From: a virus
Lineage: Duplodnaviria; Caudoviricetes
Length of the DNA stretch: 63,764 bases
IMG/VR virus record: IMGVR_UViG_3300025035_000020
Coordinates: 1 to 63,764 of that record
Direction: 5' to 3' (one strand)
The notes beneath the pieces were generated by a model. It searched no databases and was not told the DNA's origin. It saw nothing but the letters and a program-made list of their open reading frames with translations. A program made the position numbers and the translations under genes. Shown piece after piece: positions 1,206-55,377 of this stretch (positions within the stretch are counted from its first letter, which is position 1; the number at the start of each line of letters is the position of its first letter).

Positions 1206-1442
1206 ATGAACACGAAGACCTACAACTTTGGCTTCAAGTGTGTAAAAGCCCTGCTTAGCGGTGGCGCAGCGGTTAAGCGCGCGGTACGGAGCACCGGAGA
1301 CGCCGCGGCATCCATGGGCAAGGGCGCGAAGCAAGCCGTGGCGCAGCACCGTGCAGACAAGTGCCGCGCAGCGAGTAACGCGGAGATCATCACCAAGGTA
1401 CGCAGCCGCAAGGCAGCGAAGAAAGCGGGGAGCGCGAAATGA
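1206..1442 (+). CDS. Small basic early protein (78 aa), paralog of 164-361
   Basis: GGAG SD; ATGA overlap with the next gene. Confidence 0.7.
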   Translation: MNTKTYNFGFKCVKALLSGGAAVKRAVRSTGDAAASMGKGAKQAVAQHRADKCRAASNAEIITKVRSRKAAKKAGSAK

Positions 1443-1735
1443 TCATCGAGTCCGGAGTAATCATCTTTCTCGGCATGTTGTTCATTGCCCTGAAACTCAA
1501 AACCAAGACTTCGCTCGTACTACTTGGACACCCTTTGGCAGTGGACCTTGGAGTAAGTGCCGTAGCTTTTGGAATGCATTACGGAACATTCAGCGGCGTC
1601 ATGGCGGCAGCCGTGGCGGGCTTAATGAGCAGTGGCTTCACGAGCATAGCCCGCTACTCAGTCGGCTATATCGAGAGTGGTGAGTACCATCCCGGCAAGA
1701 TCTGGGTGGTCGATGTAAACAAGCTTCAAGACTAA
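1439..1735 (+). CDS. Small membrane protein (98 aa)
   Basis: Two to three hydrophobic segments; ATGA coupling. Confidence 0.75.
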   Translation: MIIESGVIIFLGMLFIALKLKTKTSLVLLGHPLAVDLGVSAVAFGMHYGTFSGVMAAAVAGLMSSGFTSIARYSVGYIESGEYHPGKIWVVDVNKLQD

Positions 1736-10691: not shown

Positions 10692-10896
10692 TCAAGATGA
10701 AAAGTACGGCTACGAAATACGCGTAAATAATCTTTGGGTTGCTGGCGGGCTTGTGCCAACTGCAAAAGAAGCGCTTCAAACAGCTGATCGTATCGAGGCT
10801 GCTTACAAGCATACGGGGACGATTGAAGCCACGTTCTACATTCGACGGCGCGTTGGCCATGATTACCTGCAAAGGCTTGCTCACGGAGAAAAGTGA
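10681..10896 (+). CDS. Hypothetical protein (71 aa)
   Basis: AAGGA SD, operon packing. Confidence 0.6.
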   Translation: MSHDQDEKYGYEIRVNNLWVAGGLVPTAKEALQTADRIEAAYKHTGTIEATFYIRRRVGHDYLQRLAHGEK

Positions 10897-10897
10897 C

Positions 10898-11098
10898 ATG
10901 AAGACGGTCTGGTGCTTTGCCGCAGGATTTATTGCGTTCCTGCTGTCCATAACTTGGGCAGTAATAGTAGCGTGGGCCTATGGAGCCGATGGCCGTGGTG
11001 ACCTGTTGGGGACAGCTTTGACAATAGCCACCATACCGGCGGCGTTACTGGGTCTTAGCACATTCATCGTGACGCGTGAACCTATGGATGGAAAGTAG
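10898..11098 (+). CDS. Small two-TM membrane protein (66 aa)
   Basis: Two hydrophobic helices; GGAG SD. Confidence 0.65.
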   Translation: MKTVWCFAAGFIAFLLSITWAVIVAWAYGADGRGDLLGTALTIATIPAALLGLSTFIVTREPMDGK

Positions 11099-27046: not shown

Positions 27047-30000
27047 TCAGAACAATCGCGCCCCGGGGACTGTTCGCTTGACGACATCGCCGAAGTCTAC
27101 GCGTGGGTCGCCGCCAGCATACCGTAGGACAGTCATCAAGTGCTCGAACGACGGGCCTAAGAGCTCTTCGCCCGGTGCTTTTCTGCCTATGCTCACGCCG
27201 CTAAACGCCTGCGCGCCAAAATCGGCCGTTCCCGTCAGGCCGGAGCGTGAGACGGTGTGCGTGAGGTAGTCCTTGAAGCCCCATCCCGGAGGCGCTCCAC
27301 CAGTAAGCGCGAACTTGGTCATGTCGGCAGCGAAGATTACAGGCATAGCAGCCATAAGAATGCCCCACGGCTTGGGGTTTCCATCGGCCAACTCGCGGTT
27401 TGCGCGCTTTAAGACCACATTCTGCATAGCGAATGTGAACTGCTTAAGGTGTGCTACCAGTATGAACCTTGGGTCCGACATCCACACCGGTCGGCTCGAT
27501 GCGCTCGGCCGCAGCACTGCCTGATCGACGAACTGGAACATAGCCTCCTGAACCTTGGGCGACGACACGTCTAGCCTGCCGTTCTCGCCGGTTGTAATGT
27601 CGCTCGCAGTAAGCCCCAACTCAGCCAAAGCCTTGGCATTGCCCTTGTTTGCAAGCAGATACCGCTCGCCCGCCACTGTAGCGGTGATACGCATCGAGTT
27701 GTTCCACCCCTGCAGCATGTTGTACTTAAAGAACGTGCGGTTGATGTCGCGCAAGCGCTTGGACATGCTGACGGTTCCGAACGAGTTGCCCATCGCTTCG
27801 AGCGTGTTATCGGCGCTAATGACCCCGAGCATGGTGGCCAGTTCCTCACCATCCACGTTCTTGGAGCCTGTCAATCGCTTGAGCGCCGTGACGTACGCAC
27901 GACCGGCGTCCTTGAAGTCTCCCGAGCGAGCGGCTAGCACGATAGGGTCGATCACTTGGGAGAAGATAGCGAACGGCAGGATGACAAGGTTTTGCAGCGT
28001 CAGTACGGACGACAGCAAATCTCGGGTCGCTACAGACATATCGTTACCGAGCGAGCCTTCCAGCCCGCGAACAATTTTGCCGATGTCGTTCAAGTCCTTC
28101 GTGGAGCTGATACCAGACGCCTGTAAGATTTTGGATATCTCTATGCCGTCATTATCGAACTCGCGCGCATACTCTGCCCGGTGAACCACTTGGTCCACAT
28201 AGCTCGTGGTTATGTCGGTCAAGTCCTTAAGCTGGTACTTGGCAAACGCTGCCGCGTTGTCTGGATTGATGAACTTGAGCTGCCGTTCAAGAACCCCGGT
28301 AGCAAACGGCGTGAACCCAAGTGCGTGGTCATTCTCAGCAAGGTCTAACTGCCCGCTGCCGTGTGTCAGCGCATCAATTATTGCGTCCGCCTGAGCCGCG
28401 CTAACTTCTCTTGTGCTTCTGAGCAGCGCCGTGAAGCCATCACGATCACTCAGTATCGCGTTACGGTCAAATGCTCGCGGGAAGTAGCGCTTTACCTGTC
28501 GAATCGGCTCCCATGCCTCCGTTCTCTTGTTATACGTCTTCACTCCGGCTGCCGTGAGATAGTCAAACAGCTCACTGAAGTGCGCAGCAAGTGCTTTCTC
28601 CAAGTCCGAAGTGGGCTCGCGCATAGCCTGCATGTTTTCCAGCGCTTCGCGCCGCTGCTGCGCCGTAGTGTCTTTGAGAATCCCTCCGAGCTTATTCCTC
28701 CATATGCCTTGCTGCTGGAAGCGCTGCTGTATGAATCCGGCGCGCCCATTCCCCCCGCTGAACTTGTCAGCCAAGCGATTTAGCGCTTCGTTCTGGTAGT
28801 CGCGCAAACGATCCGGAGCCGCGCTGAACACTTTCGTCAGGACCTCGGACACCAGTGGCGCAGCTCTGTCCAGCTTGTTCCTCAGTCGGTCACCCCTACC
28901 AGACAAATCTTCGAGAACCTCCGATACAACACTCGGATCTGCAAAGCGCCCGTCGTGCAGCGCAGTAAGGAGGTCCTTGGCACGTTGGTCTGCCCCAACC
29001 AGCCCGAATAGGTCGCTGAGGAACTGGCGCACGCGCGCAAAGATTCCAGTACCAGTTGGCCCCAGCTGCAACAGGCCTTCAGCCCAGAACTGATACATGT
29101 AAGCAATGCGCTCTTCCCCGTCGTTCTCCGCTTGCTCACGCGCGCGCGGGTGGTCGACCAGCAGTTCACGCAGGCGCTTCATCGCGTGTGGCGCATTGGA
29201 GGCATCGAGCAGGTCGCGCTTGATAGAGCGAGACGCAGGATCGCTACCCAACGTGGCAAAGAAGTCGTGCAGCGATTCGTGGAATGCTACGCCCATCGGG
29301 TTGGCAGCATTTACGGCAATTCGAATCAGGCGATTCGTTTTGTCGACGCCAATTGAGAACTCGCCCGACCCGCCGATTTTCGCAAATGTCGTGAACAGCG
29401 TTTTTACGCGCTTACCGCGCGTGCGGCGAATCTCGTCAATAATTTTCTGCTGGTCTTCCGGGCCAATGGCTGTCCCTACCTCGTCAATATTCGATGCTTT
29501 CCTAGAACGCACGGCATTTACCATGCGCACTACTTCGGCGCGCTGTTCAGCGGTTGCCTTAGTAGCCAGCAGCAAAGCGCCGAAGCTAACCGGTCCAGCT
29601 ACTTTTGACGGCGCAAAGGCCTCCTGCAACGCTGCGAGTACTTCTTCCTGCTGCTTGGTCCGCCCGATCTTAGTCATCTGCTGTAGCGCGGGCAGCGTCG
29701 CTTGCGCCACGGATACGAGGCGCAGCACCTTCTCAGCAGTATCCAAGCGCTTTATATTGCCGCCTACGAAGATGTCATGCAGCGCGTCCAGCACCGCGCC
29801 TCCAGCATTACGAACGACTGGCGCAGGGGCAATACCAGTTCGCGTACTGCTTGTACCGCGCTGCTGCAGCCCCTCGCCGGTAGTCTCGTCAAAGCGTCTC
29901 GGACCTTTCGGGTCGCTCCCTCGCAAACTGCCTGTGGAACCAAAGCCCTTGCCCTTTGCGAACGGACCCCCCGTTGATTTGCCCTCACCGAAGTCTCCCC

Positions 30001-33000
30001 CGACCGGCGATGGAGCGTCGACGATCGCCGATTGCAGATCGTCGAACAGCGGATGGCTTCCCACGTCTCTAGCGGTAGAGAACCCCCGCAGCTCGCTTCG
30101 GAACTCCGCGATAGCGTCTGACGTTTCCCCAGCTACTACTAGGTTCTCCTGCACCTCATCAAGAACCGCATGCGCAGCATCCGTGAACGCCGCCTGCATG
30201 TCCTGAGCCGCTGATTTGGCGTAGTCTGCTCGCGCCTGCATAGCGCGTGCGGCGGCTAAATCTGCGCGCGAAGACGTCTTTGGGACGTACGCGTCCCATA
30301 AAGCCCGCGCCTTCCCCTGTATGCGCTTTTTCACGGCCTCTGTTTCCGTGGCCTGCTGCTCCCACGTGGCGAGCCAGCCCTGCACCACGTCGCTATTTGC
30401 ATAGCTCAGCGCTTCTTCCAAACCTATGCGGGGGTCCGACGCAGCAGCGAGATCATCACGCATGGTCGCAAGCTGGTCGCGAATGAATGCTCTACGCTGC
30501 GGCACACCGCGTTGCTGCCCTTCACGCACGGCCTCGAACGCGCGTAGTGCGAGGATGGCCCCCTCACTCTTCTCCGCACGCTGCACCACGTCGGCAACAC
30601 CCGGGCCGAACGCGAGGTTCTTTGGAAACCGCCCAGCGGCGGCACCTTCGATGCCCACGATTTCTGGGCGGTTCAATACCGATGCGACCGCCTCAGCAAA
30701 AAGCCTACGAGTACGCGTCTCGCCGGGTTCTCCACGACCGCTGCCCTCTTTTTTGCCCTGTGCCTGCACCATGGATTGCGCTGACAAAGCCAACTTGGTG
30801 CCGTCTTTGCGCAAGAAGACGATCTTGGTTCGGTCAATCCCTGCGGCAGTCTCCTTATTGCGCTTTTTCAACAGGCGCGCGAAGTCCTGCAAGTCTTTAT
30901 CGCTCGCAGTCGTCTGATTGCGCGCGCCGGAAGTCGCCACAACTTCGAATTGGTCCAGCACTCCCGCGAACCCGTTGCTACGAAAACCAGCCCGCGCCAG
31001 CTCTTTAACGGCGTTGAGCTCAGCAATCTGGGCACTGCGGTCTTCGTCCTTACGGGCTTGGTGCCCAGCGATGCGTTTGTCGATGTCGGCAATAACCCGC
31101 AGCGCCTCGGTCTCATGGTCGGCCCCCGTGAGATCAGCGAACGCGCGCAGACTGACTACACGCGGATTCTCCCCGACTGCACGCAACTCATCCAGCTTCT
31201 TATCGACATCACGAATCGTGCGCCGAAAGCCGTCCTTTGTACTGACTCTGGCTCCCTCCGAGGTCGCTCGTACAAATGGGCGTAGCGACTTGGCGTCCTT
31301 AAAATGAAACGTCAGGTTATCCGGATTACCCTCGCGAACGGTCACGCCGATGTTGTTGCGCTCGTCGACTTCGGCGTCCTCGAACGTCGTGTCAGGACGG
31401 CCGCCATCGACAGTATCCCCACCATCGACAGTATCCGCTAGCTCGTTATCGCCGATGAGTGAGTCATCAGCAGTGGCAACGGGCGCACTCGCTATTTCGG
31501 CATCCGCCTCACGCGATAGCGCCGCACGCTGCAAGTTGCCGTAGTATTCCAAAACAGTCTGAGCTTTACGAACGGACCCGAAGACCGCGGCCAGTGGAGT
31601 GAGTAGTTTGAGCTTCTGCTCCTTATTCCGATTCTGTATACGCACCGCGCCGGCGTCTACATAGTTCGCTATGTTCCTCAGGGTTTTTGGGGACACCGGT
31701 TCGGCCAGTAAGGACTCAAGGAAACTGTTGCCCTGAGAGGTCTGTATATCGCGCGATGCCGAGGGGATATCCCGAATCTTCACCACGGCGGCGCGTAGCC
31801 CATCGGAGCCACTGATCTTTGTGGCCGTCTCCAGAATGTCGTCGCCAACAACCTCGGACAAGTTCCTAAGCCGCACGGCAACTTCTGGCGTAATTTTAGC
31901 CTCTGGCGAGAAGCGGACTGAGGCGCTGACCAGCTGCCGAGCCAGCAGCGGAGCGTCCGCAGCTCTATCAGGCCCAAGCCGTACTGCGAGCTCGTTGATA
32001 AGCGGTGCCAATTCTTGCAGCGGGAGATCCTGCAGATTCTTCTTTATCAAGCCGTCGGCGATGGCCGAAGTACTATCCTCGAAAGCGTTTTTCGCCGTGT
32101 TAAGGACACCGGGCAGCGCTTTGCGCGCTTCGCGCGCTTTAATGCCTAGGCTTTTCCCCAGTTCAGACAGCTCTACGATGGCCTCGCCAAATCTTTTACC
32201 TGTCTGCTGCGCGATTACGTTTTGGGCTACAAAAGCCTGTGCCTCAGGAGAGGTGAAGTCGCCGTTGAACCCCTCCACGCGAGCTGCAAGGCTCTTCGAC
32301 GTGGCCGGGTTATTGAGCAGTTCTTGCGCGTACACCGCCGCCCGCTCTTGCCGCTTAATATCGCGGGCAGACAGCGCAGCAGCAGGGTCCACAGCGCCGA
32401 GTACACTGGGGTCTTCGGTATCAGGGAGCAGATCGGCCGCTGCTGAATCCGCGAGATCATCGCCAAACACTTGCTGGATGAACTCGCCCGGATTCGTGGC
32501 AGTCGCGCTCGCAGATTCCGTACGAGCGAGTATGTCCTCTACGGGATCGGAAGGGCTAAGCTCAGACGGCTCAGACGGCTCAGACGGCTCAGACGGGAGA
32601 GTACTCCGGATCTTATTACCGGCGCTATCTACTGCATCTGCAACCGCATTGCCCGCCTTCGAGGCTCTGCGTGCTAGCACTTCCGCTCCCGCCTGCGCAG
32701 CCCGTCCCGCCCCGCGTACGCCGGCGGTCACTCCACCGCCGGTCAGCGCACCGGACACAGCGTCGTCAGCGACGTCAAGCAAGTTGAGCTTGCGCGACGG
32801 ATCAAGGAACGCATCGGCCTTGAAGCCGACCACATTCTGCAGGCCCTCGGTAAGACCTTCCTCGCCGCTTCTGCGTAGGACTTCTCTACCGAATGACTGG
32901 GTCGGTTTGCGGAATACCCCGCGCGAGAGCGCGAGCGGAACTGCCGATTCCAAGAGCGCATTTACGGCGCTCTTGGCATTTGCTGCAGTGGTGCGGTCAT

Positions 33001-33526
33001 CAACGCTAGCTTGTGCAAGTCTGGGGTCGCTCTGCTGCCCGAGAGCCGCTTCGCCGCGCTCGACTTCAAACGCGGTGCCGGCAGTGGCGGCGTTACCGAC
33101 GAGCCTACCGAGAGGACCGCGGCCGCCCGTCACGAGCGCCGTGGCCAACGTGGGCGCTAGGCTCGCAACCCCTTGCCCGAAGGCTCCAGTAGCGAAATCG
33201 AACGCGTCGTTCACGCCGCGGATATCGCGGAGCGAACGAACACGCGGTGCAGAGGGCTCCTGCTCCTGCTGAATCCGGAGCGCCTGATCATTAAGCCGTG
33301 CGGCACCCTCCACGTCTCCGCTGGACTCCAAGCGCAGTGCTTCGCTGGCCAAACGGCCCGAACTCAGTCCAGCGATACCGGAACGAAACCCCCTCGTAAA
33401 CTGCGTGTCATCGCTCTGAGTAAGCGCTGCTACGTCCTGCGCCGAGATACCGGGATCGGCGATAAACGGTGGCACGACTGGTGTCTCGTCGTCAGCAGCC
33501 GTGCGGAGGATAGAGTTGCGGATCAT
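27047..33526 (-). CDS. Large internal virion / ejection protein (2159 aa) with HExxH zincin-like motif
   Basis: Ala-rich helical giant ORF at the end of the structural operon; AFHESLH...EERIAY. Confidence 0.75.
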   Translation of the reverse strand: MIRNSILRTAADDETPVVPPFIADPGISAQDVAALTQSDDTQFTRGFRSGIAGLSSGRLASEALRLESSGDVEGAARLNDQALRIQQEQEPSAPRVRSLRDIRGVNDAFDFATGAFGQGVASLAPTLATALVTGGRGPLGRLVGNAATAGTAFEVERGEAALGQQSDPRLAQASVDDRTTAANAKSAVNALLESAVPLALSRGVFRKPTQSFGREVLRRSGEEGLTEGLQNVVGFKADAFLDPSRKLNLLDVADDAVSGALTGGGVTAGVRGAGRAAQAGAEVLARRASKAGNAVADAVDSAGNKIRSTLPSEPSEPSEPSELSPSDPVEDILARTESASATATNPGEFIQQVFGDDLADSAAADLLPDTEDPSVLGAVDPAAALSARDIKRQERAAVYAQELLNNPATSKSLAARVEGFNGDFTSPEAQAFVAQNVIAQQTGKRFGEAIVELSELGKSLGIKAREARKALPGVLNTAKNAFEDSTSAIADGLIKKNLQDLPLQELAPLINELAVRLGPDRAADAPLLARQLVSASVRFSPEAKITPEVAVRLRNLSEVVGDDILETATKISGSDGLRAAVVKIRDIPSASRDIQTSQGNSFLESLLAEPVSPKTLRNIANYVDAGAVRIQNRNKEQKLKLLTPLAAVFGSVRKAQTVLEYYGNLQRAALSREADAEIASAPVATADDSLIGDNELADTVDGGDTVDGGRPDTTFEDAEVDERNNIGVTVREGNPDNLTFHFKDAKSLRPFVRATSEGARVSTKDGFRRTIRDVDKKLDELRAVGENPRVVSLRAFADLTGADHETEALRVIADIDKRIAGHQARKDEDRSAQIAELNAVKELARAGFRSNGFAGVLDQFEVVATSGARNQTTASDKDLQDFARLLKKRNKETAAGIDRTKIVFLRKDGTKLALSAQSMVQAQGKKEGSGRGEPGETRTRRLFAEAVASVLNRPEIVGIEGAAAGRFPKNLAFGPGVADVVQRAEKSEGAILALRAFEAVREGQQRGVPQRRAFIRDQLATMRDDLAAASDPRIGLEEALSYANSDVVQGWLATWEQQATETEAVKKRIQGKARALWDAYVPKTSSRADLAAARAMQARADYAKSAAQDMQAAFTDAAHAVLDEVQENLVVAGETSDAIAEFRSELRGFSTARDVGSHPLFDDLQSAIVDAPSPVGGDFGEGKSTGGPFAKGKGFGSTGSLRGSDPKGPRRFDETTGEGLQQRGTSSTRTGIAPAPVVRNAGGAVLDALHDIFVGGNIKRLDTAEKVLRLVSVAQATLPALQQMTKIGRTKQQEEVLAALQEAFAPSKVAGPVSFGALLLATKATAEQRAEVVRMVNAVRSRKASNIDEVGTAIGPEDQQKIIDEIRRTRGKRVKTLFTTFAKIGGSGEFSIGVDKTNRLIRIAVNAANPMGVAFHESLHDFFATLGSDPASRSIKRDLLDASNAPHAMKRLRELLVDHPRAREQAENDGEERIAYMYQFWAEGLLQLGPTGTGIFARVRQFLSDLFGLVGADQRAKDLLTALHDGRFADPSVVSEVLEDLSGRGDRLRNKLDRAAPLVSEVLTKVFSAAPDRLRDYQNEALNRLADKFSGGNGRAGFIQQRFQQQGIWRNKLGGILKDTTAQQRREALENMQAMREPTSDLEKALAAHFSELFDYLTAAGVKTYNKRTEAWEPIRQVKRYFPRAFDRNAILSDRDGFTALLRSTREVSAAQADAIIDALTHGSGQLDLAENDHALGFTPFATGVLERQLKFINPDNAAAFAKYQLKDLTDITTSYVDQVVHRAEYAREFDNDGIEISKILQASGISSTKDLNDIGKIVRGLEGSLGNDMSVATRDLLSSVLTLQNLVILPFAIFSQVIDPIVLAARSGDFKDAGRAYVTALKRLTGSKNVDGEELATMLGVISADNTLEAMGNSFGTVSMSKRLRDINRTFFKYNMLQGWNNSMRITATVAGERYLLANKGNAKALAELGLTASDITTGENGRLDVSSPKVQEAMFQFVDQAVLRPSASSRPVWMSDPRFILVAHLKQFTFAMQNVVLKRANRELADGNPKPWGILMAAMPVIFAADMTKFALTGGAPPGWGFKDYLTHTVSRSGLTGTADFGAQAFSGVSIGRKAPGEELLGPSFEHLMTVLRYAGGDPRVDFGDVVKRTVPGARLF
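32561..32596. repeat. 9-bp tandem repeat x4 (PSE linker)
   Basis: ctcagacgg x4. Confidence 0.9.
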
Positions 33527-43042: not shown

Positions 43043-43198
43043 TTACGGCCCATTCTTGATTTGATACGCCGCTACCGCGACAAGCACAGCGGCGGCGGCA
43101 GCGCTGATCCACCACGGGATCATCAGCGTAATCACAATGATCGACGCTGCAATCAACAGTTCAAGCGGCGAGAAATTGGCATCACCTAACGCGCTCAT
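43043..43198 (-). CDS. Very hydrophobic small membrane protein (51 aa)
   Basis: AGGAG SD; LLIAASIIVITLMIPWWISAAAAAVLVAVAAY. Confidence 0.6.
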   Translation of the reverse strand: MSALGDANFSPLELLIAASIIVITLMIPWWISAAAAAVLVAVAAYQIKNGP

Positions 43199-52429: not shown

Positions 52430-52837
52430 TTAGAGCTTGAAGATCTTGTTTGGACCGTTGTCCCACGTGACGATGATATCGCCGCCATTGGGCGTAATCG
52501 GCAGCCCGGTCGCCGTGTCGATGAAAGCGATGAGCGGGCTAGTGGAATCGACGCCAGTGTCCTTGTAGAGCACAATGGCTTCGATGCTCGCGCCTGTCAC
52601 CGACGTGAAAGTGACATCGTTGGCATCGGCAGCGCCGCCAGCTGTTGCTTTGCCGGTAAAGGCACCGGACACCGAGATTCGCGCACCCGTGCCGATATCA
52701 GACAGAAACTCGTGGGCTGACAGATTCGCCGTGTAGGTGCCGGTATCCACGAGAAGCGACTTGATGGTGTCGGTGTTCCAGTTGAACTGGCCCTCCAGAA
52801 ACCGCTGGCGGGCTTTATCAAAGAGGGCATTTGCCAT
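52430..52837 (-). CDS. Virion structural protein (135 aa)
   Basis: DAND.TF, GLPITPNGGDIIVTW motif; AGGAG SD. Confidence 0.75.
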   Translation of the reverse strand: MANALFDKARQRFLEGQFNWNTDTIKSLLVDTGTYTANLSAHEFLSDIGTGARISVSGAFTGKATAGGAADANDVTFTSVTGASIEAIVLYKDTGVDSTSPLIAFIDTATGLPITPNGGDIIVTWDNGPNKIFKL

Positions 52838-52875
52838 GGTCCAATCTCCTAAGCAGTGTGGTGGGATTATAAGGG

Positions 52876-52912
52876 GTCCGAGCGCGTTGTGGAGCAGACA
52901 ACGCGCCCGGAC
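52876..52912 (-). promoter_or_regulatory. 15-bp hairpin between lysis and tail genes, next to TATAAT
   Basis: gtccgggcgcgttgt / acaacgcgctcggac; TATAAT at 52871-52866. Confidence 0.55.
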
Positions 52913-52972
52913 TGCCAAAAGTTATTCCGGACAACGCGCCGGTACAAGCGACTCACCCTTGGCTGGAGTCAT

Positions 52973-53467
52973 TCACTGCTTGTTGAGGTGTTCACGCTCA
53001 AGCATCAGGAGTTTTTGGAGTCCTCGTACTTGGGCGTCACATTGGGCTGCGGCACGAACAATTCGTCCCGCACTTTCTTCTCGGTTTCTGGTGGCTGCAT
53101 CAGGTTCGGCGGTAGCGGCGGCAGTGCTGGACAGTAGCTCGGCCTCGCAACCGGACCAACGGTGCTGCAGCCGGAGGTTGCCAGCACGTAAAGCAGCGAC
53201 AACAGCAGTGCTTGTGGCTTCGGCATCTTTCTTTCCTTTTTCATAGGCCTCTGACGCATCAGCTTGCGCTTTTGCAAGGTCCCGCTCAAGTCGGTTGGCC
53301 GCAATCCTGTTATTCACCTCGGCCGTGAGGTCCGCAGCAAGGTGCTCATTCATAGCGAGGTCGGCAGCCGTAGTAGCATGCTTTCCGCCCTGCCAGTACC
53401 CAACACCGCCCGCGATGGCCGCGATAAAGAGAAACGCAGCGGTGATATATCCATAGACGGCGCTCAT
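52973..53467 (-). CDS. Rz: i-spanin (Rz-like)
   Basis: N-terminal TM, coiled coil, LRAGNLRL, C...ADAQVRGLQ-like end; follows the endolysin. Confidence 0.85.
   Translation of the reverse strand: MSAVYGYITAAFLFIAAIAGGVGYWQGGKHATTAADLAMNEHLAADLTAEVNNRIAANRLERDLAKAQADASEAYEKGKKDAEATSTAVVAALRAGNLRLQHRWSGCEAELLSSTAAATAEPDAATRNREESAGRIVRAAAQCDAQVRGLQKLLMLEREHLNKQ
53005..53226 (-). CDS. Rz1: o-spanin lipoprotein embedded in Rz
   Basis: MPKPQALLLSLLYVLATSG-C lipobox; Pro-rich CPALPPLPPNLMQPP. Confidence 0.85.
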   Translation of the reverse strand: MPKPQALLLSLLYVLATSGCSTVGPVARPSYCPALPPLPPNLMQPPETEKKVRDELFVPQPNVTPKYEDSKNS

Positions 53468-54054
53468 ACCGCTTCTCCCGTCCTGCATAGTTGATACTCA
53501 GCGTCGCGTCGTCTTGCGAGGCCCTGCACAAAGCGATATTCGGCTTTGCCGTTCGGCAGCATCCTGCCCGTTTTAACGTAGCTCCACACCCGTCTGCCGC
53601 TATCTGAAAAAGCCAGCCTGCGGCAGCCGAGCTGCCAGTCGCCGCGATTCCATGCCAGCATGGCCTGACTACCGCAAGTAGCCGACGTGCCATTGTTCCA
53701 CGCGTGGCTGGTCGCAGCGTCGAATACGGACTGCGGCGGCATACGACTGAAGCACATCTCTAAACGGAGCTGAACGACCTCGACAGCCTTGCGCTCCTCA
53801 GCAAGGCACTTCTCTGCCGGCCAGCGCTGGCCGACAATGATTGGCGTCGTAGTTATGTGCCGAGTCAGACCAGCGCAGACGGTAGGGAGTCCGCCAGCGA
53901 GGCGGTCGGCATACACCACCGAGGAACCATCGGAGTCCTTGCCACCCTCCCACATGCCGATAAAAGCGGCAACGGCGACCGTTCCGAGCAGGAGCCGTGG
54001 GCCAAACTTCTTGGACGGTTTGCCCCCGCTATTCGACTTGGCTACGTCGGTCAC
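53464..54054 (-). CDS. SAR endolysin, GH24 lysozyme
   Basis: N-terminal Gly/Ala-rich SAR LLLGTVAVAAFIGMW; WEG...YAD...PTVC catalytic residues; GL.RRR.AE..LC; GTG start with GGAGG SD. Confidence 0.9.
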   Translation of the reverse strand: MTDVAKSNSGGKPSKKFGPRLLLGTVAVAAFIGMWEGGKDSDGSSVVYADRLAGGLPTVCAGLTRHITTTPIIVGQRWPAEKCLAEERKAVEVVQLRLEMCFSRMPPQSVFDAATSHAWNNGTSATCGSQAMLAWNRGDWQLGCRRLAFSDSGRRVWSYVKTGRMLPNGKAEYRFVQGLARRRDAEYQLCRTGEAV

Positions 54055-54694
54055 TGTCTAGCCTCCGTATGGAGCCAACCCAGCGCTTAGTCTGCGCGTT
54101 TTCCGGGATTGGGGTTGCCGCAGCTTCTACGTCGATACTCTCGCCATCCGCGGTAACCACGCGATATCTGATGCGGTAATGCCGGCACTCACTGCGGCAT
54201 AAATCCCAGTGCTGGCGTACTCGGTCCACATCCTCTAGGTGGATGAAGTTGAAGTAGTTCCACCCGAGCAATTCGGTCTTTCCGACACCCAACCAACGGG
54301 CATACGTCTGATTTACATACGTGTTTGCTCCGGCACCGTCAGCGTAGAAGCGCGCCACGAAGCCATCCGAATCATTTTCCGCGCGCATGGTCTGCACAAC
54401 CAAGTCGATTTGTTCGACAAGTGCGGCCATGACCTTTTCGGTGTGCGTGATGGAATCCATCATCGAGCCGCCGCCATTCGGAGAGACGTAATAGCGAATG
54501 CCTTTTACCTCAGCCTGCAGCGCGGGGATACCGCGCAACCCTTCGAAAACATCGCGCCAGAACTTTTTCCATACGGGGAAATGCTTCCGATACCAAAGCA
54601 CCCACGCGCCGCATAACGACGGGATCACGAAAAGAAGTATCTGCGTTATGTCGAGCCGCTCGAGAACGTCGTGCCACACCCCCGCGTTGTCCAT
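54029..54694 (-). CDS. Single-TM membrane protein with C-terminal PAS domain, in holin position
   Basis: TM ITQILLFVIPSLCGAWVLWY; PAS pattern FYADGAG..TYVNQTYARWLG....LLGWNYFNFIHLEDVDRV...W......YRIRYRVVTADGE...VEA.ATP......WVGSI. Confidence 0.8.
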   Translation of the reverse strand: MDNAGVWHDVLERLDITQILLFVIPSLCGAWVLWYRKHFPVWKKFWRDVFEGLRGIPALQAEVKGIRYYVSPNGGGSMMDSITHTEKVMAALVEQIDLVVQTMRAENDSDGFVARFYADGAGANTYVNQTYARWLGVGKTELLGWNYFNFIHLEDVDRVRQHWDLCRSECRHYRIRYRVVTADGESIDVEAAATPIPENAQTKRWVGSIRRLDSDRRSQVE

Positions 54695-55377
54695 CAGTAG
54701 CCCCCGTAACCGACAGTTCTGTACTTATGTTCCCGCTTTTCGCGCTCGGCTTTAGCCTGAGCGCTATATGCCAAAAACTCGTCGCGGAATTCGGCAGCGC
54801 GACCGCGATCATAGGTCTCCGCATCCTGCTTCTGATGCGCGAGATGCTTCATCCAGTGCACTAAGGGGCGATGGTGGTGCTCATCGATTTCCAGTGGCTG
54901 GCCGCCAACGTCCGTGATTGCAACCAGCGGCATGCGGTACACGATCAGGTCAAAGGTCTGATCTTCCTGCGGAATCCGTACCAGTCGGACCTTATTGGCC
55001 TCCATGCCGACTACGATCGCGGTAACTGCGCCGGGGGTATTGTCGATACGGTACGCCGAGCGACTGCCATAGTCGTCATCCCCTTGGCGGGCCTGCAGGT
55101 CCTCAAAGTTCAGAATCTCGAGGCCGCGCCCGTCGATGGAGCGTCGTGCCTCACGAAGCTTGAGGATGAGCGGACTGATCGGGACAAACACGTCGCCGGC
55201 AGCCGCTGTCAGGCGAGTAACCGGCGACGTGGCATCTGCAATGCCGCCCTGCAATCGGCAGAACATTTTTTGCGCATCGTCGATGTACGAGTAAACCTCC
55301 GCACTTGACCAGAGGTACGGCGCTACTTCGTCGCGCACCTCCGACCGAAAGAGATCGTGCAGAGCGGTGCTGTCCAT
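54694..55377 (-). CDS. Head-tail adaptor-like protein (227 aa)
   Basis: PYLWS..E...YIDDAQ..FCR, EIDEHHH..L..W....A..KQDAET. Confidence 0.6.
   Translation of the reverse strand: MDSTALHDLFRSEVRDEVAPYLWSSAEVYSYIDDAQKMFCRLQGGIADATSPVTRLTAAAGDVFVPISPLILKLREARRSIDGRGLEILNFEDLQARQGDDDYGSRSAYRIDNTPGAVTAIVVGMEANKVRLVRIPQEDQTFDLIVYRMPLVAITDVGGQPLEIDEHHHRPLVHWMKHLAHQKQDAETYDRGRAAEFRDEFLAYSAQAKAEREKREHKYRTVGYGGY

What the first reader, a model, noticed from the sequence alone, without database searches (positions are those of the whole stretch)
52973..54694. PAS sensor domain fused to a membrane protein in the holin slot: candidate signal-gated lysis system
Seen: the lysis cassette reads [221-aa protein]-[SAR endolysin]-[Rz/Rz1]. 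The first gene overlaps the endolysin by 26 nt and contains its GGAGG SD. There is no conventional holin in the cassette. The protein has one N-terminal TM, a basic amphipathic stretch (RKHFPVWKKFWR, so C-terminus inside by the positive-inside rule), a helical linker with SPNGGGSMMD, and a complete PAS-like domain with no kinase, cyclase or other output domain. From memory, the PNGGxSxxD motif occurs in lysis-associated phage membrane proteins. Established: SAR endolysins are released by membrane depolarisation (pinholins), and T4 holin T is a similar-sized single-TM protein regulated through a GAF-like soluble domain. Inference: this is a holin or antiholin whose timing is set by a cytoplasmic ligand, redox or energy signal sensed by PAS, letting the phage time lysis to host state.
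Basis: partly seen in the sequence, partly recalled or inferred. Interest (0 to 1): 0.9.

Follow-up and report, generated by a model that had tools for sequence, protein, structure and literature searches.

The report
Membrane-anchored PAS protein heading phage lysis cassette
A phage gene directly in front of its cell-wall-degrading enzyme encodes a membrane-anchored protein with a cytoplasmic sensor-type (PAS) domain, which suggests, but does not prove, that this phage family tunes the moment of host lysis to a signal inside the cell.

Summary
On the minus strand, 54029-54694 encodes a 221-aa protein with one N-terminal transmembrane helix, a basic amphipathic helix, an invariant PNGGGS..D turn and a PAS domain. 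Pfam PAS_3 scores 1.4e-13, the AF2 model has pLDDT 93.7, and every Foldseek row shown is PAS or LOV. The gene overlaps a SAR-type GH24 endolysin by 26 nt, followed by Rz/Rz1. The positive-inside rule puts the PAS domain in the cytoplasm. The protein belongs to a large, apparently phage-only family. In 16 of 17 close loci, including four with no detectable similarity to the window's structural genes, it sits directly upstream of a SAR endolysin.

Its N-terminal module is homologous (hhalign 97.3%) to stand-alone 76-159-aa phage membrane proteins. Some of these lie beside endolysins, and RefSeq labels some "holin".

The claim that it is the holin is not supported. More distant relatives occur in cassettes with separate holin-like genes: one confirmed holin, the rest only multi-pass by architecture. 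Most distant relatives lie outside recognisable lysis cassettes. Its topology is opposite to T4 holin T.

Best reading: an accessory lysis-timing regulator, antiholin- or releasin-like, fused to a PAS domain. Function and any ligand are untested.

The parts
54029..54694 (-). 221-aa TM-linker-PAS protein (whole gene, stop included)
   Evidence: ORF. PAS_3 1.4e-13. 157 homologues (the best 120 listed are near-full-length). AF2 pLDDT 93.7.
54590..54649 (-). Transmembrane helix, residues 16-35, predicted N-out/C-in
   Evidence: Kyte-Doolittle maximum of 2.0 over residues 16-33. N-flank has 1 K/R and 4 D/E; C-flank has 5 K/R. The C-flank has more K/R than the N-flank in 30 of 30 sequences of A1 and 107 of 114 of A2. 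Lies within AF2 helix 16-54.
54533..54589 (-). Basic amphipathic juxtamembrane helix, residues 36-54 (RKHFPVWKKFWRDVFEGLR)
   Evidence: Net charge +4 in the window protein, mean +4.2 in A1; hydrophobic moment 1.45. Continuous with the TM helix in the model.
54455..54481 (-). PNGGGSMMD turn, residues 72-80, between helices 56-70 and 78-109
   Evidence: P72, G74-G76, S77 and D80 are invariant in 30 sequences. The same motif is invariant in stand-alone phage membrane proteins. hhalign of A1 residues 18-92 against those proteins: 97.3%, E 2.5e-11.
54059..54367 (-). PAS domain, residues 110-212
   Evidence: Pfam PAS_3, PAS and PAS_9. AF2 gives five strands plus helices. Foldseek PDB: 587 hits at E<=1e-3, and every row shown is PAS, LOV, FixL or ARNT.
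54062..54066 (-). GGAGG Shine-Dalgarno of the endolysin gene, inside the PAS gene
   Evidence: Read from the sequence; 7 nt upstream of the GTG at 54054.
53464..54054 (-). GH24 endolysin with a SAR-type N-terminus
   Evidence: PF00959 1.9e-10, phrog_7 6.5e-25, PF00959 rings at 53497-53916.
53950..54054 (-). Endolysin N-terminal basic tail (residues 1-20, 5 K/R) and Gly/Ala-rich hydrophobic SAR-like segment (residues 21-35), directly before Glu36
   Evidence: The same layout occurs in 11 of 11 endolysins partnered with this subfamily.
52973..53488 (-). Rz-type i-spanin; the probable start is the ATG at 53467, which overlaps the endolysin stop
   Evidence: phrog_1327 2.5e-19. N-terminal TM segment at residues 11-29.
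53005..53226 (-). Rz1-type o-spanin lipoprotein, embedded in Rz in another frame
   Evidence: phrog_3198 1.1e-3, weak. Signal peptide and lipobox LATSGC read. Equivalent embedded ORFs occur in L006, L009 and L014.

Best explanation
The 221-aa protein is a membrane-tethered cytoplasmic PAS protein that acts as an accessory regulator of lysis timing, antiholin-like or releasin-like, rather than as a conventional holin.

What it is made of. It fuses two parts: (i) an ancient phage module found in many lysis cassettes, consisting of a single N-out/C-in TM helix, a basic juxtamembrane helix and a helical hairpin closed by a PNGG[GS]SxxD turn; and (ii) a C-terminal PAS domain.

How it most likely works. 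It is made from the late operon together with the SAR endolysin and the spanins, through overlapping reading frames. While the endolysin is held inactive in the membrane by its Gly/Ala-rich SAR helix and its basic cytoplasmic tail, the TM-PAS protein sits beside it in the inner membrane. The state of the PAS domain (dimerisation, or binding of a cytoplasmic ligand or cofactor) is passed through the helical linker to the TM and juxtamembrane helices. This changes either membrane integrity and energisation, or the ease with which the SAR helix leaves the bilayer, and so sets when the endolysin is released. Rz/Rz1 then break the outer membrane.

Shown: gene order and overlaps, domain architecture, predicted topology, homology, and conserved pairing with SAR endolysins. 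Inferred: every functional step, the sign of the effect (delay or trigger), and any sensing by the PAS domain.
For: (1) PAS fold.
- PAS_3 1.4e-13.
- 113 of 114 family members match PAS_3.
- AF2 pLDDT 93.7.
- Foldseek gives 587 PDB hits at E<=1e-3, and every row shown is PAS or LOV.

(2) Topology. The C-flank of the TM helix has more K/R than the N-flank in 30 of 30 sequences of A1, 107 of 114 of A2 and 9 of 9 of A5.

(3) Coupling. There is a 1-nt overlap with the adaptor gene and a 26-nt overlap with the endolysin gene, whose SD lies inside this gene. No promoter or terminator signal exceeds shuffles at 51.5-56.5 kb.

(4) Linkage.
- 16 of 17 close loci have a GH24 endolysin starting -15 to +29 nt from the end of the PAS match.
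- Four of these, L016-L019 (one in a Lysobacter MAG), show no similarity to the window's capsid, adaptor or tail genes.
- In L009, L011-L014 and L018 the endolysin is only distantly related, or below tblastn detection, yet still adjacent (where tblastn aligned it, L009, L011, L018: 22-27% identity; L012-L014 found only by the A6 profile).

(5) Partner type. 11 of 11 partnered endolysins have a basic N-tail (3-5 K/R) and a G/A/S/T-rich hydrophobic segment just upstream of the conserved Glu-Gly motif (taken as the catalytic Glu). In phage Mu, basic residues in that tail make SAR release depend on gp25, a membrane-tethered cytoplasmic protein (PMC9239132: abstract, sections 10 and 11 read).

(6) N-terminal module.
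- hhalign of A1 against the stand-alone TM+PNGG proteins gives 97.3%, E 2.5e-11.
- Those proteins match phrog_9869 (10 of 10 tested). Three of the ten also match phrog_15431 'holin' at E 3.6e-14, 1e-6 and 2.7e-3.
- In Thermobifida phage P1312, Arthrobacter phage Mufasa8 and a Propioniciclava prophage they lie directly upstream of the endolysin.

(7) Accessory rather than holin.
- In L032 the TM-PAS gene is followed by a 3-TM ORF, a holin (phrog_3427 9.4e-35; one GTA_holin_3TM hit among the 114 ORFs, which by my reading is this ORF) and an M15 endolysin.
- In L026, L031 and L059 a small multi-pass ORF follows it, with an endolysin downstream.
- In L027 an M15 endolysin is followed by a 2-TM ORF and Rz/Rz1.

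(8) Phage-specific.
- The nearest Atlas clusters are 100% viral.
- The top BFVD hits are 'PAS domain [uncultured Caudovirales phage]'.
- Only 2 relatives turned up in 185,579 species genomes, both in phage-like context.
Against: - No experiment exists. No paper on a PAS protein in phage lysis turned up in three searches.
- The window protein itself matches no PHROG (residues 1-98 at E<=1), and no Pfam family other than PAS (residues 1-78 alone gave nothing meaningful at E<=1).
- Synteny inside one phage lineage (L004-L015 share 76-92% identical capsid genes) is inherited and is not independent evidence. The independent cases are few: L016-L019, L028 and L034.
- In the wider family only 8 of 43 non-redundant loci have a recognisable endolysin within 2.6 kb downstream. 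Other neighbours are a portal, a T7-type terminase, tail fibres, a methylase, RecA and polymerase domains.
- L003 keeps the gene without an adjacent endolysin. Its 38-kb record has no PF00959 hit but is only 57% complete.
- There is no homology to the Mu releasin: hhalign probability 0.6% and 2.5%, and no DUF2730 hit in 114 members.
- No cofactor-binding signature was recognised. Across the 114-sequence alignment only G122, R171, P195 and G207 are nearly invariant, so the PAS domain may serve only as a dimerisation scaffold.
Confidence: 0.5

Rival explanations
1. One reading: the protein is itself the holin, or a pinholin equivalent. It accumulates in the inner membrane, and when its cytoplasmic PAS domain changes state it oligomerises through its single TM helix. 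This depolarises the membrane and so releases the SAR endolysin.
For: - It is the only TM protein in the cassette besides the endolysin and Rz/Rz1, and it occupies the first slot with translational coupling.
- No ORF of the window matched a holin family. The tested candidates are 1439-1735, 10739-11098 and 43043-43198.
- SAR endolysins need only depolarisation, not large holes (established knowledge; background in PMC9239132).
- Distant stand-alone homologues of the N-terminal module match phrog_15431 'holin' and are labelled holin in RefSeq actinophage records.
- In L016 and L018 no other small TM ORF besides the spanins is seen in the cassette.
Against: - The 'holin' labels are annotations, not tests. 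GenBank versions of the same genes say 'membrane protein'.
- Relatives co-occur with a true holin family member (L032) or with separate small multi-pass membrane ORFs (L026, L027, L031, L059). Stand-alone modules co-occur with a separate holin in L020 and Mufasa8.
- There is a single TM helix with the bulk of the protein in the cytoplasm. This is unlike two-TM pinholins and opposite to T4 T (the holin classes are recalled).
- A conserved 98-aa 3-TM protein exists elsewhere in the genome at 1439-1735 (74% and 67% identity in two relatives, plus one marginal hit at 31%, E 4.4e-3), and its role is unknown.
- Mu shows that SAR-endolysin phages can lack a holin altogether (PMC9239132).
Confidence: 0.2
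2. The protein has nothing to do with lysis. It is a late-expressed inner-membrane PAS protein with another role, such as superinfection exclusion, sensing or manipulating host physiology, or an assembly function. It travels next to the endolysin only because lysis and accessory genes are exchanged as blocks.
For: - In the wider family 35 of 43 non-redundant loci show no recognisable endolysin within 2.6 kb downstream. Neighbours include a portal, a terminase, tail fibres and replication genes.
- L003 keeps the gene without the endolysin.
- There is no sequence link to any experimentally characterised lysis protein.
Against: - 8 of 43 is well above the roughly 5% expected for one side of a random gene in a 50-kb phage (my estimate).
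- The pairing persists across unrelated backbones and after exchange of the endolysin type.
- The frames overlap, with the endolysin's SD inside the gene.
- The N-terminal module alone recurs directly upstream of endolysins in actinophages.
- There is no PADLOC defence match.
- My neighbour test looked only downstream, on one strand, at ORFs of 100-420 aa and at Pfam-recognisable hydrolases, so it undercounts.
Confidence: 0.2

Closest known systems
Phage Mu gp25 'releasin' (DUF2730, PF10805)
   Same: A single N-terminal TM helix, N-out/C-in, with a basic motif at the membrane-cytoplasm junction and a helical cytoplasmic domain. It is encoded near a SAR endolysin whose basic cytoplasmic tail makes release dependent on it. 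The phage has no holin in the cassette. (PMC9239132 abstract and sections 10-11; Mu annotation.)
   Different: No detectable homology: hhalign 0.6% and 2.5%, and no DUF2730 hit. gp25 has 99 aa and no PAS domain. It lies downstream of the endolysin, not upstream. Function here is untested.
Stand-alone phage 'TM + PNGG[GS]SxxD' membrane proteins (phrog_9869; some match phrog_15431 'holin'), e.g. Arthrobacter phage Mufasa8 gp22, Laroye gp72, Thermobifida phage P1312_040
   Same: Homologous N-terminal module (hhalign 97.3%), the same predicted topology, and the same position directly upstream of an endolysin in several phages.
   Different: They have 76-159 aa and lack the PAS domain. They come mostly from phages of Actinobacteria with soluble amidase or peptidase endolysins and a separate holin. 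Their own function has not, as far as I found, been tested.
T4 holin T (class III holin) with antiholins RI and RIII
   Same: Similar size and a single TM helix plus a large globular domain through which lysis timing is regulated (recalled; PMC11413866 passages).
   Different: T's globular domain is periplasmic, whereas here it is predicted to be cytoplasmic. No sequence match was found, and no T4 T chain is among the Foldseek rows shown. No holin activity has been shown here.
Pinholin S21 68 / SAR endolysin R21 systems
   Same: A SAR endolysin followed by Rz/Rz1, with a membrane protein gene immediately upstream (recalled; background in PMC9239132).
   Different: Pinholins are small and have two TM helices and no soluble domain. 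This protein has one TM helix and a 185-residue cytoplasmic part.
Membrane-anchored PAS sensors of bacteria (Aer, FixL and LOV-type PAS modules)
   Same: A cytoplasmic PAS fold joined to the membrane through helical linkers. The best structural matches are LOV-PAS, FixL and ARNT PAS domains.
   Different: There is no kinase, HAMP/MCP, GGDEF or other output domain. No LOV cysteine motif was seen by eye, and no residue of the PAS core other than G122, R171, P195 and G207 is nearly invariant family-wide.

Membership tests
PAS domain (Pfam PAS_3 / PAS fold clan) | Profile match above the curated threshold | tested here: met
   PAS_3 51.3 bits against a cut-off of 25.6, E 1.4e-13; PAS and PAS_9 are also above cut-off. 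113 of 114 relatives match PAS_3.
PAS domain (Pfam PAS_3 / PAS fold clan) | Five-stranded antiparallel sheet flanked by helices | tested here: met
   AF2 pLDDT 93.7. Strands at 113-119, 124-127, 173-180, 186-196 and 204-211; helices at 129-169. 587 PDB Foldseek hits at E<=1e-3, and every row shown is PAS or LOV.
PAS domain (Pfam PAS_3 / PAS fold clan) | Binds a ligand or cofactor and signals | not testable with these tools
   No cofactor signature was recognised. Only four columns are nearly invariant family-wide.
Holin (functional class) | Small phage membrane protein encoded in the lysis cassette | tested here: met
   One TM helix. The gene overlaps the endolysin gene.
Holin (functional class) | Member of a described holin sequence family | tested here: not met
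   The whole protein has no PHROG hit at E<=0.01 and no Pfam family other than PAS at E<=1. Its N-terminal part has no PHROG hit at E<=1 (residues 1-98) and one meaningless Pfam hit (DUF7358, E 0.22, residues 1-78). Only distant stand-alone homologues match phrog_15431 'holin'.
Holin (functional class) | Forms lethal membrane lesions at a programmed time | not testable with these tools
   Needs expression and membrane-potential assays.
Pinholin (S21 68 type) | Two TM helices, the first SAR-like | tested here: not met
   A single hydrophobic segment at residues 16-35.
T4 holin T (class III) | N-in/C-out topology with a large periplasmic domain | tested here: not met
   The positive-inside rule gives N-out/C-in in 30 of 30 close and 107 of 114 distant members. 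This is a prediction, not an experiment.
Mu releasin, DUF2730 (PF10805) | Sequence membership in DUF2730 | tested here: not met
   No DUF2730 hit for the window protein or for 114 relatives. hhalign against Mu gp25 gives 0.6%.
Mu releasin, DUF2730 (PF10805) | N-out/C-in single TM helix with a cytoplasmic domain, encoded near a SAR endolysin with a basic tail | tested here: met
   The criteria come from PMC9239132.
Mu releasin, DUF2730 (PF10805) | Required for SAR endolysin release | not testable with these tools
   Needs genetics and fractionation.
Phage TM+PNGG module (phrog_9869-like) | Profile-profile homology of the N-terminal 90 residues and the invariant PNGG[GS]SxxD motif | tested here: met
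   hhalign of A1 against A5: 97.3%, E 2.5e-11, residues 18-92. The motif is invariant in A1 and A5.
Phage TM+PNGG module (phrog_9869-like) | Direct HMM match of the window protein to phrog_9869 | tested here: not met
   No PHROG hit at E<=0.01 for the whole protein, nor at E<=1 for residues 1-98. Relatives with PAS (L055, L039, L071) do match.

The most novel reading that the evidence does not exclude
The PAS domain binds a cytoplasmic ligand or cofactor that reports host energy, redox or metabolic state. Through the helical linker it switches the membrane module, so that a whole family of phages (229 relatives in IMG/VR from one motif pattern alone) gates the release of its endolysin on the physiological state of the infected cell. 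This would be a cytoplasmic-signal-gated lysis clock built from a lysis-cassette membrane module fused to a sensor domain.
Probability: 0.25. Interest if true: 0.9.

Novelty: new variant of a known kind. Interest (0 to 1): 0.68.

Why it matters
Lysis timing decides burst size and phage fitness. The known regulators (antiholins, T4 RI/RIII, the Mu releasin) respond to membrane energisation or superinfection, and none carries a generic sensor domain. A PAS domain fused to a lysis-cassette membrane module would give a direct handle for asking whether phages read host metabolism to decide when to lyse. It would also give a natural scaffold for engineering ligand- or light-controlled lysis.

The work also defines an unstudied, widespread phage module (one TM helix plus a PNGG[GS]SxxD turn). 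This module recurs in front of endolysins in phages of both Proteobacteria and Actinobacteria and is at present labelled 'membrane protein', 'holin' or 'PAS domain' without any test.

Tried and rejected
- tblastn of the 221-aa protein against 50,697 INPHARED phage records: no match. The same search with the Propioniciclava 159-aa module: no match.
- First AF2 run with the shallow 30-sequence alignment: pLDDT 62.7, judged too poor to use. It was replaced by the 114-sequence run.
- Homology to the Mu releasin gp25: rejected (hhalign 0.6% and 2.5%).
- Predicted complex of the TM-PAS protein with the SAR endolysin (collected): no verdict, score 0.00 against a mark of 0.32, controls not run. It is not used as evidence either way.
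- Alternative holin candidates in the window:
  - 43043-43198 (51 aa, 2 TM) has no family hit and was not found in 5 relatives. It lies among ORFs without PHROG matches, and a neighbouring gene is also absent from 4 relatives.
  - 1439-1735 (98 aa, 3 TM) has clear homologues in two relatives (74%, 67% identity) and one marginal hit (31%, E 4.4e-3). It matches only phrog_29412 of unknown function, with a holin family at E 0.33, and it lies near the start of the plus-strand (presumably early) gene block.
  - 10739-11098: no hits.
  - None can be excluded as a holin.
- Promoter and terminator scan of 51.5-56.5 kb: nothing above shuffles.
- PADLOC: no hit.
- Immediate-downstream-gene test in the wider family. 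Only 4 were peptidoglycan hydrolases.
- The 2.6-kb test used 114 ORFs from 40 of 43 loci (3 loci had none). Only the first 25 of 36 Pfam families were shown, so the count of 8 loci is a lower bound. The assignment of the single Amidase_2 hit to L096 is my reading of the sequence.
- Of the 80 loci, 9 gave no ORF in frame with my simple caller and were dropped. 71 were collapsed to 43 at 85% positional identity.
- Supplementary Table S1 of PMC9239132 could not be seen. It may list DUF2730-endolysin pairs relevant to the comparison.


Full report
**What is there.** The window is a complete 63,764-bp virus record. Four translationally linked genes lie on the minus strand between the SU10-type head-tail adaptor gene (54694-55377; PF24175 2.2e-14) and the next tail gene (52430-52918):
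- a 221-aa gene at 54029-54694;
- a 196-aa GH24 endolysin at 53464-54054;
- Rz at 52973-53488;
- an embedded Rz1 at 53005-53226.

The first gene shares one base with the adaptor gene's stop codon. It overlaps the endolysin gene by 26 nt and contains that gene's GGAGG at 54062-54066. A simple scan found no promoter or terminator signal above shuffles in 51.5-56.5 kb, so the cassette appears to be part of the late structural operon.

**The protein.** Pfam gives PAS_3 at 1.4e-13 (51.3 bits, cut-off 25.6), plus PAS and PAS_9 above their cut-offs, and no output domain. A shallow alignment gave a poor model (pLDDT 62.7). With 114 diverse relatives the AF2 model reached pLDDT 93.7 and pTM 0.68. Its elements are:
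- a long helix at 16-54 (TM helix plus a basic amphipathic extension);
- a helix at 56-70;
- the PNGGGS turn;
- a helix at 78-109;
- a canonical PAS core with five strands and four helices.

Foldseek against the PDB returned 587 matches at E<=1e-3. Every row shown is a PAS, LOV, FixL or ARNT domain, with 6ph4_B best at 5.7e-8. A profile search of PDB sequences also returned only PAS proteins.

The 15 residues after the TM helix carry more Lys/Arg than the 15 before it in 30 of 30 close relatives, 107 of 114 distant relatives and 9 of 9 stand-alone modules. The means in the 114 are 3.8 against 0.4. The predicted topology is therefore N-out/C-in, with the PAS domain in the cytoplasm. The juxtamembrane helix is basic (+4), and the segment from the PNGG turn to the end of helix 3 is acidic (-4, range -3 to -5 in 30 sequences).

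**The family.**
- The word-indexed search found 157 homologues; the best 120 listed are 191-230 aa long and cover 82-100% of the query.
- The exhaustive representative search found 3805 hits at E<=1e-3. Of the best 150, 102 are small proteins (<=280 aa) with the same layout, and the rest are long multi-PAS proteins that match only the PAS part.
- The nearest Atlas structure clusters are 195-205-aa PAS proteins that are 100% viral.
- The best BFVD matches are 'PAS domain [uncultured Caudovirales phage]'.
- Only two relatives were found in one genome each of 185,579 prokaryote species, and both lie in phage-like context.
- The INPHARED collection of sequenced phages holds no match to the window protein.
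- Three literature searches found nothing about a PAS protein in phage lysis.

**Linkage to the endolysin.** In 16 of 17 loci of the close subfamily, a GH24 endolysin (local profile of alignment A6) starts between -15 and +29 nt of the end of the PAS match. Only L003 lacks it. Its record has no PF00959 hit but is only 57% complete.

Twelve of these loci belong to the window's own phage lineage (capsid 76-92% identical), so their synteny is inherited. The informative cases are:
- L016-L019, where no capsid, adaptor or tail gene of the window is detectable but the pair is intact;
- L009, L011-L014 and L018, where the endolysin is only distantly related to the window's, or too diverged for tblastn, yet still adjacent (22-27% identity where tblastn aligned it, in L009, L011 and L018; L012-L014 found only with the A6 profile);
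- L028 and L034 from a more distant subfamily.

All 11 endolysins I aligned have a basic N-terminal tail (3-5 K/R), then a G/A/S/T-rich hydrophobic segment just upstream of the conserved Glu-Gly motif that I take to hold the catalytic Glu. That is a SAR-type layout.

**The N-terminal module stands alone elsewhere.**
- A scan of IMG/VR for PNGG[SG]S[LM][RP]D found 585 stretches, of which 229 encode relatives.
- Some are 76-159-aa proteins with only the TM helix and the motif.
- All ten proteins tested match phrog_9869 (unknown function). Three of the ten also match phrog_15431, annotated 'holin' (3.6e-14, 1e-6, 2.7e-3).
- Profile-profile comparison of the window's family with these stand-alone proteins gives 97.3% probability and E 2.5e-11 over residues 18-92.
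- In cultured actinophages the homologues are annotated 'membrane protein' (GenBank) or 'holin' (RefSeq).
- In Mufasa8 the gene precedes a metallo-endopeptidase, a second 'holin' and a peptidase.
- In Thermobifida phage P1312 it overlaps the amidase gene.
- In a Propioniciclava prophage it precedes an endolysin (phrog_1493) and a holin (phrog_1299).

The window protein is best described as this module fused to a PAS domain.

**Why I do not call it the holin.** In the wider family the immediate downstream ORF is a peptidoglycan hydrolase in only 4 of 38 cases. An endolysin lies within 2.6 kb downstream in at least 8 of 43 non-redundant loci. This is above chance but far from a rule. Other neighbours are a portal, a T7-type terminase, tail fibres and replication genes.

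Where a lysis cassette is visible, the TM-PAS gene usually comes first, and a separate membrane gene is present:
- in L032, a 3-TM ORF, then a holin (phrog_3427 9.4e-35; the single GTA_holin_3TM hit is, by my reading, the same ORF), then an M15 endolysin;
- in L026, L031 and L059, a small multi-pass ORF and then an endolysin;
- in L027, an M15 endolysin, then a 2-TM ORF and Rz/Rz1.

The small multi-pass ORFs have no PHROG match, so calling them holins rests on architecture only. Even so, this co-occurrence and the cytoplasmic bulk of the protein fit an accessory regulator better than the hole-former.

The T4 holin T comparison fails on topology. I could not confirm that T's soluble domain is GAF-like.

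**Closest functional analogue.** Phage Mu lacks a holin. It uses gp25, a membrane-tethered cytoplasmic protein with N-out/C-in topology, to release its SAR endolysin, and the dependence is conferred by basic residues in the endolysin's cytoplasmic tail (PMC9239132: abstract, sections 10 and 11). The window's system has the same layout: a basic endolysin tail, a tethered cytoplasmic protein, and no evident holin in the cassette. There is no sequence homology, however, and the gene order differs. It may work like a releasin, but it is not a member of DUF2730.

**Verdict.** I put 0.5 on a lysis-timing regulator that acts on SAR-endolysin release or on an unidentified holin, 0.2 on the protein being the holin itself, and 0.2 on a role unrelated to lysis. 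Whether the PAS domain senses anything is open. Across the 114-sequence alignment only four columns are nearly invariant, and I recognised no cofactor motif. A complex prediction with the endolysin gave no verdict and is not used.

Noticed in passing
L086 1054-1284; L091 3899-4129; L100 3899-4129 (76 aa); L068 3968-4285; L090 3965-4285: Minimal 76-106-aa phage proteins that consist only of a TM helix plus the PNGGSSLRD motif (phrog_9869). They form an unstudied small membrane protein family that may be the ancestral unit of the TM-PAS proteins.
   Followed up: partly
window 1439-1735 (+): A 98-aa protein with three hydrophobic segments near the start of the plus-strand gene block. Two relatives hold clear homologues (74%, 67% identity) and a third a marginal hit (31%, E 4.4e-3). 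It matches only phrog_29412 (unknown function), with a holin family at E 0.33. It cannot be excluded as a holin encoded away from the cassette.
   Followed up: partly
It has no family hit and was not found in 5 relatives. It lies in a stretch (42.2-44.3 kb) of ORFs without PHROG matches.
   Followed up: partly
window 52973-55377: The lysis cassette is inserted in the middle of the virion-gene operon, between the SU10-type adaptor gene and the tail genes, and is joined to the adaptor gene by a 1-nt overlap. It is not at the end of the late region.
   Followed up: partly
L003 4422-5639: A close relative keeps the TM-PAS gene, but the tail gene follows directly, with no endolysin or spanins between them. 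No GH24 endolysin occurs elsewhere in its 38-kb record, which is 57% complete.
   Followed up: partly
L055 3950-6454: In a phage with a T7-type large terminase, the TM-PNGG-PAS gene lies between a long upstream ORF (825 aa, not annotated here) and the terminase gene. From memory, this is about where T7 encodes its holin gp17.5.
   Followed up: no
L019 9052-9201: In the Lysobacter MAG locus, a short ORF (about 41-49 aa) with a hydrophobic segment lies between the SAR endolysin and the Rz-like gene. It is a possible small holin or pinholin that is absent from the window's cassette.
   Followed up: no
L016 4869-5705: Directly upstream of the TM-PAS gene are two small ORFs that look by eye like a toxin-antitoxin or HTH pair. 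They were not checked against any library.
   Followed up: no
window 27047-33526 (-): A 2159-aa ORF, followed by ORFs of 819, 643, 390 and 819 aa on the same strand. These are presumably large internal virion or ejection proteins. They were not annotated.
   Followed up: no
L107 (Thermobifida phage P1312) 2908-3351: The stand-alone TM+PNGG protein is deposited as 'sensory protein kinase CreC'. That name looks like a mis-annotation of a 147-aa membrane protein that overlaps the amidase gene.
   Followed up: partly
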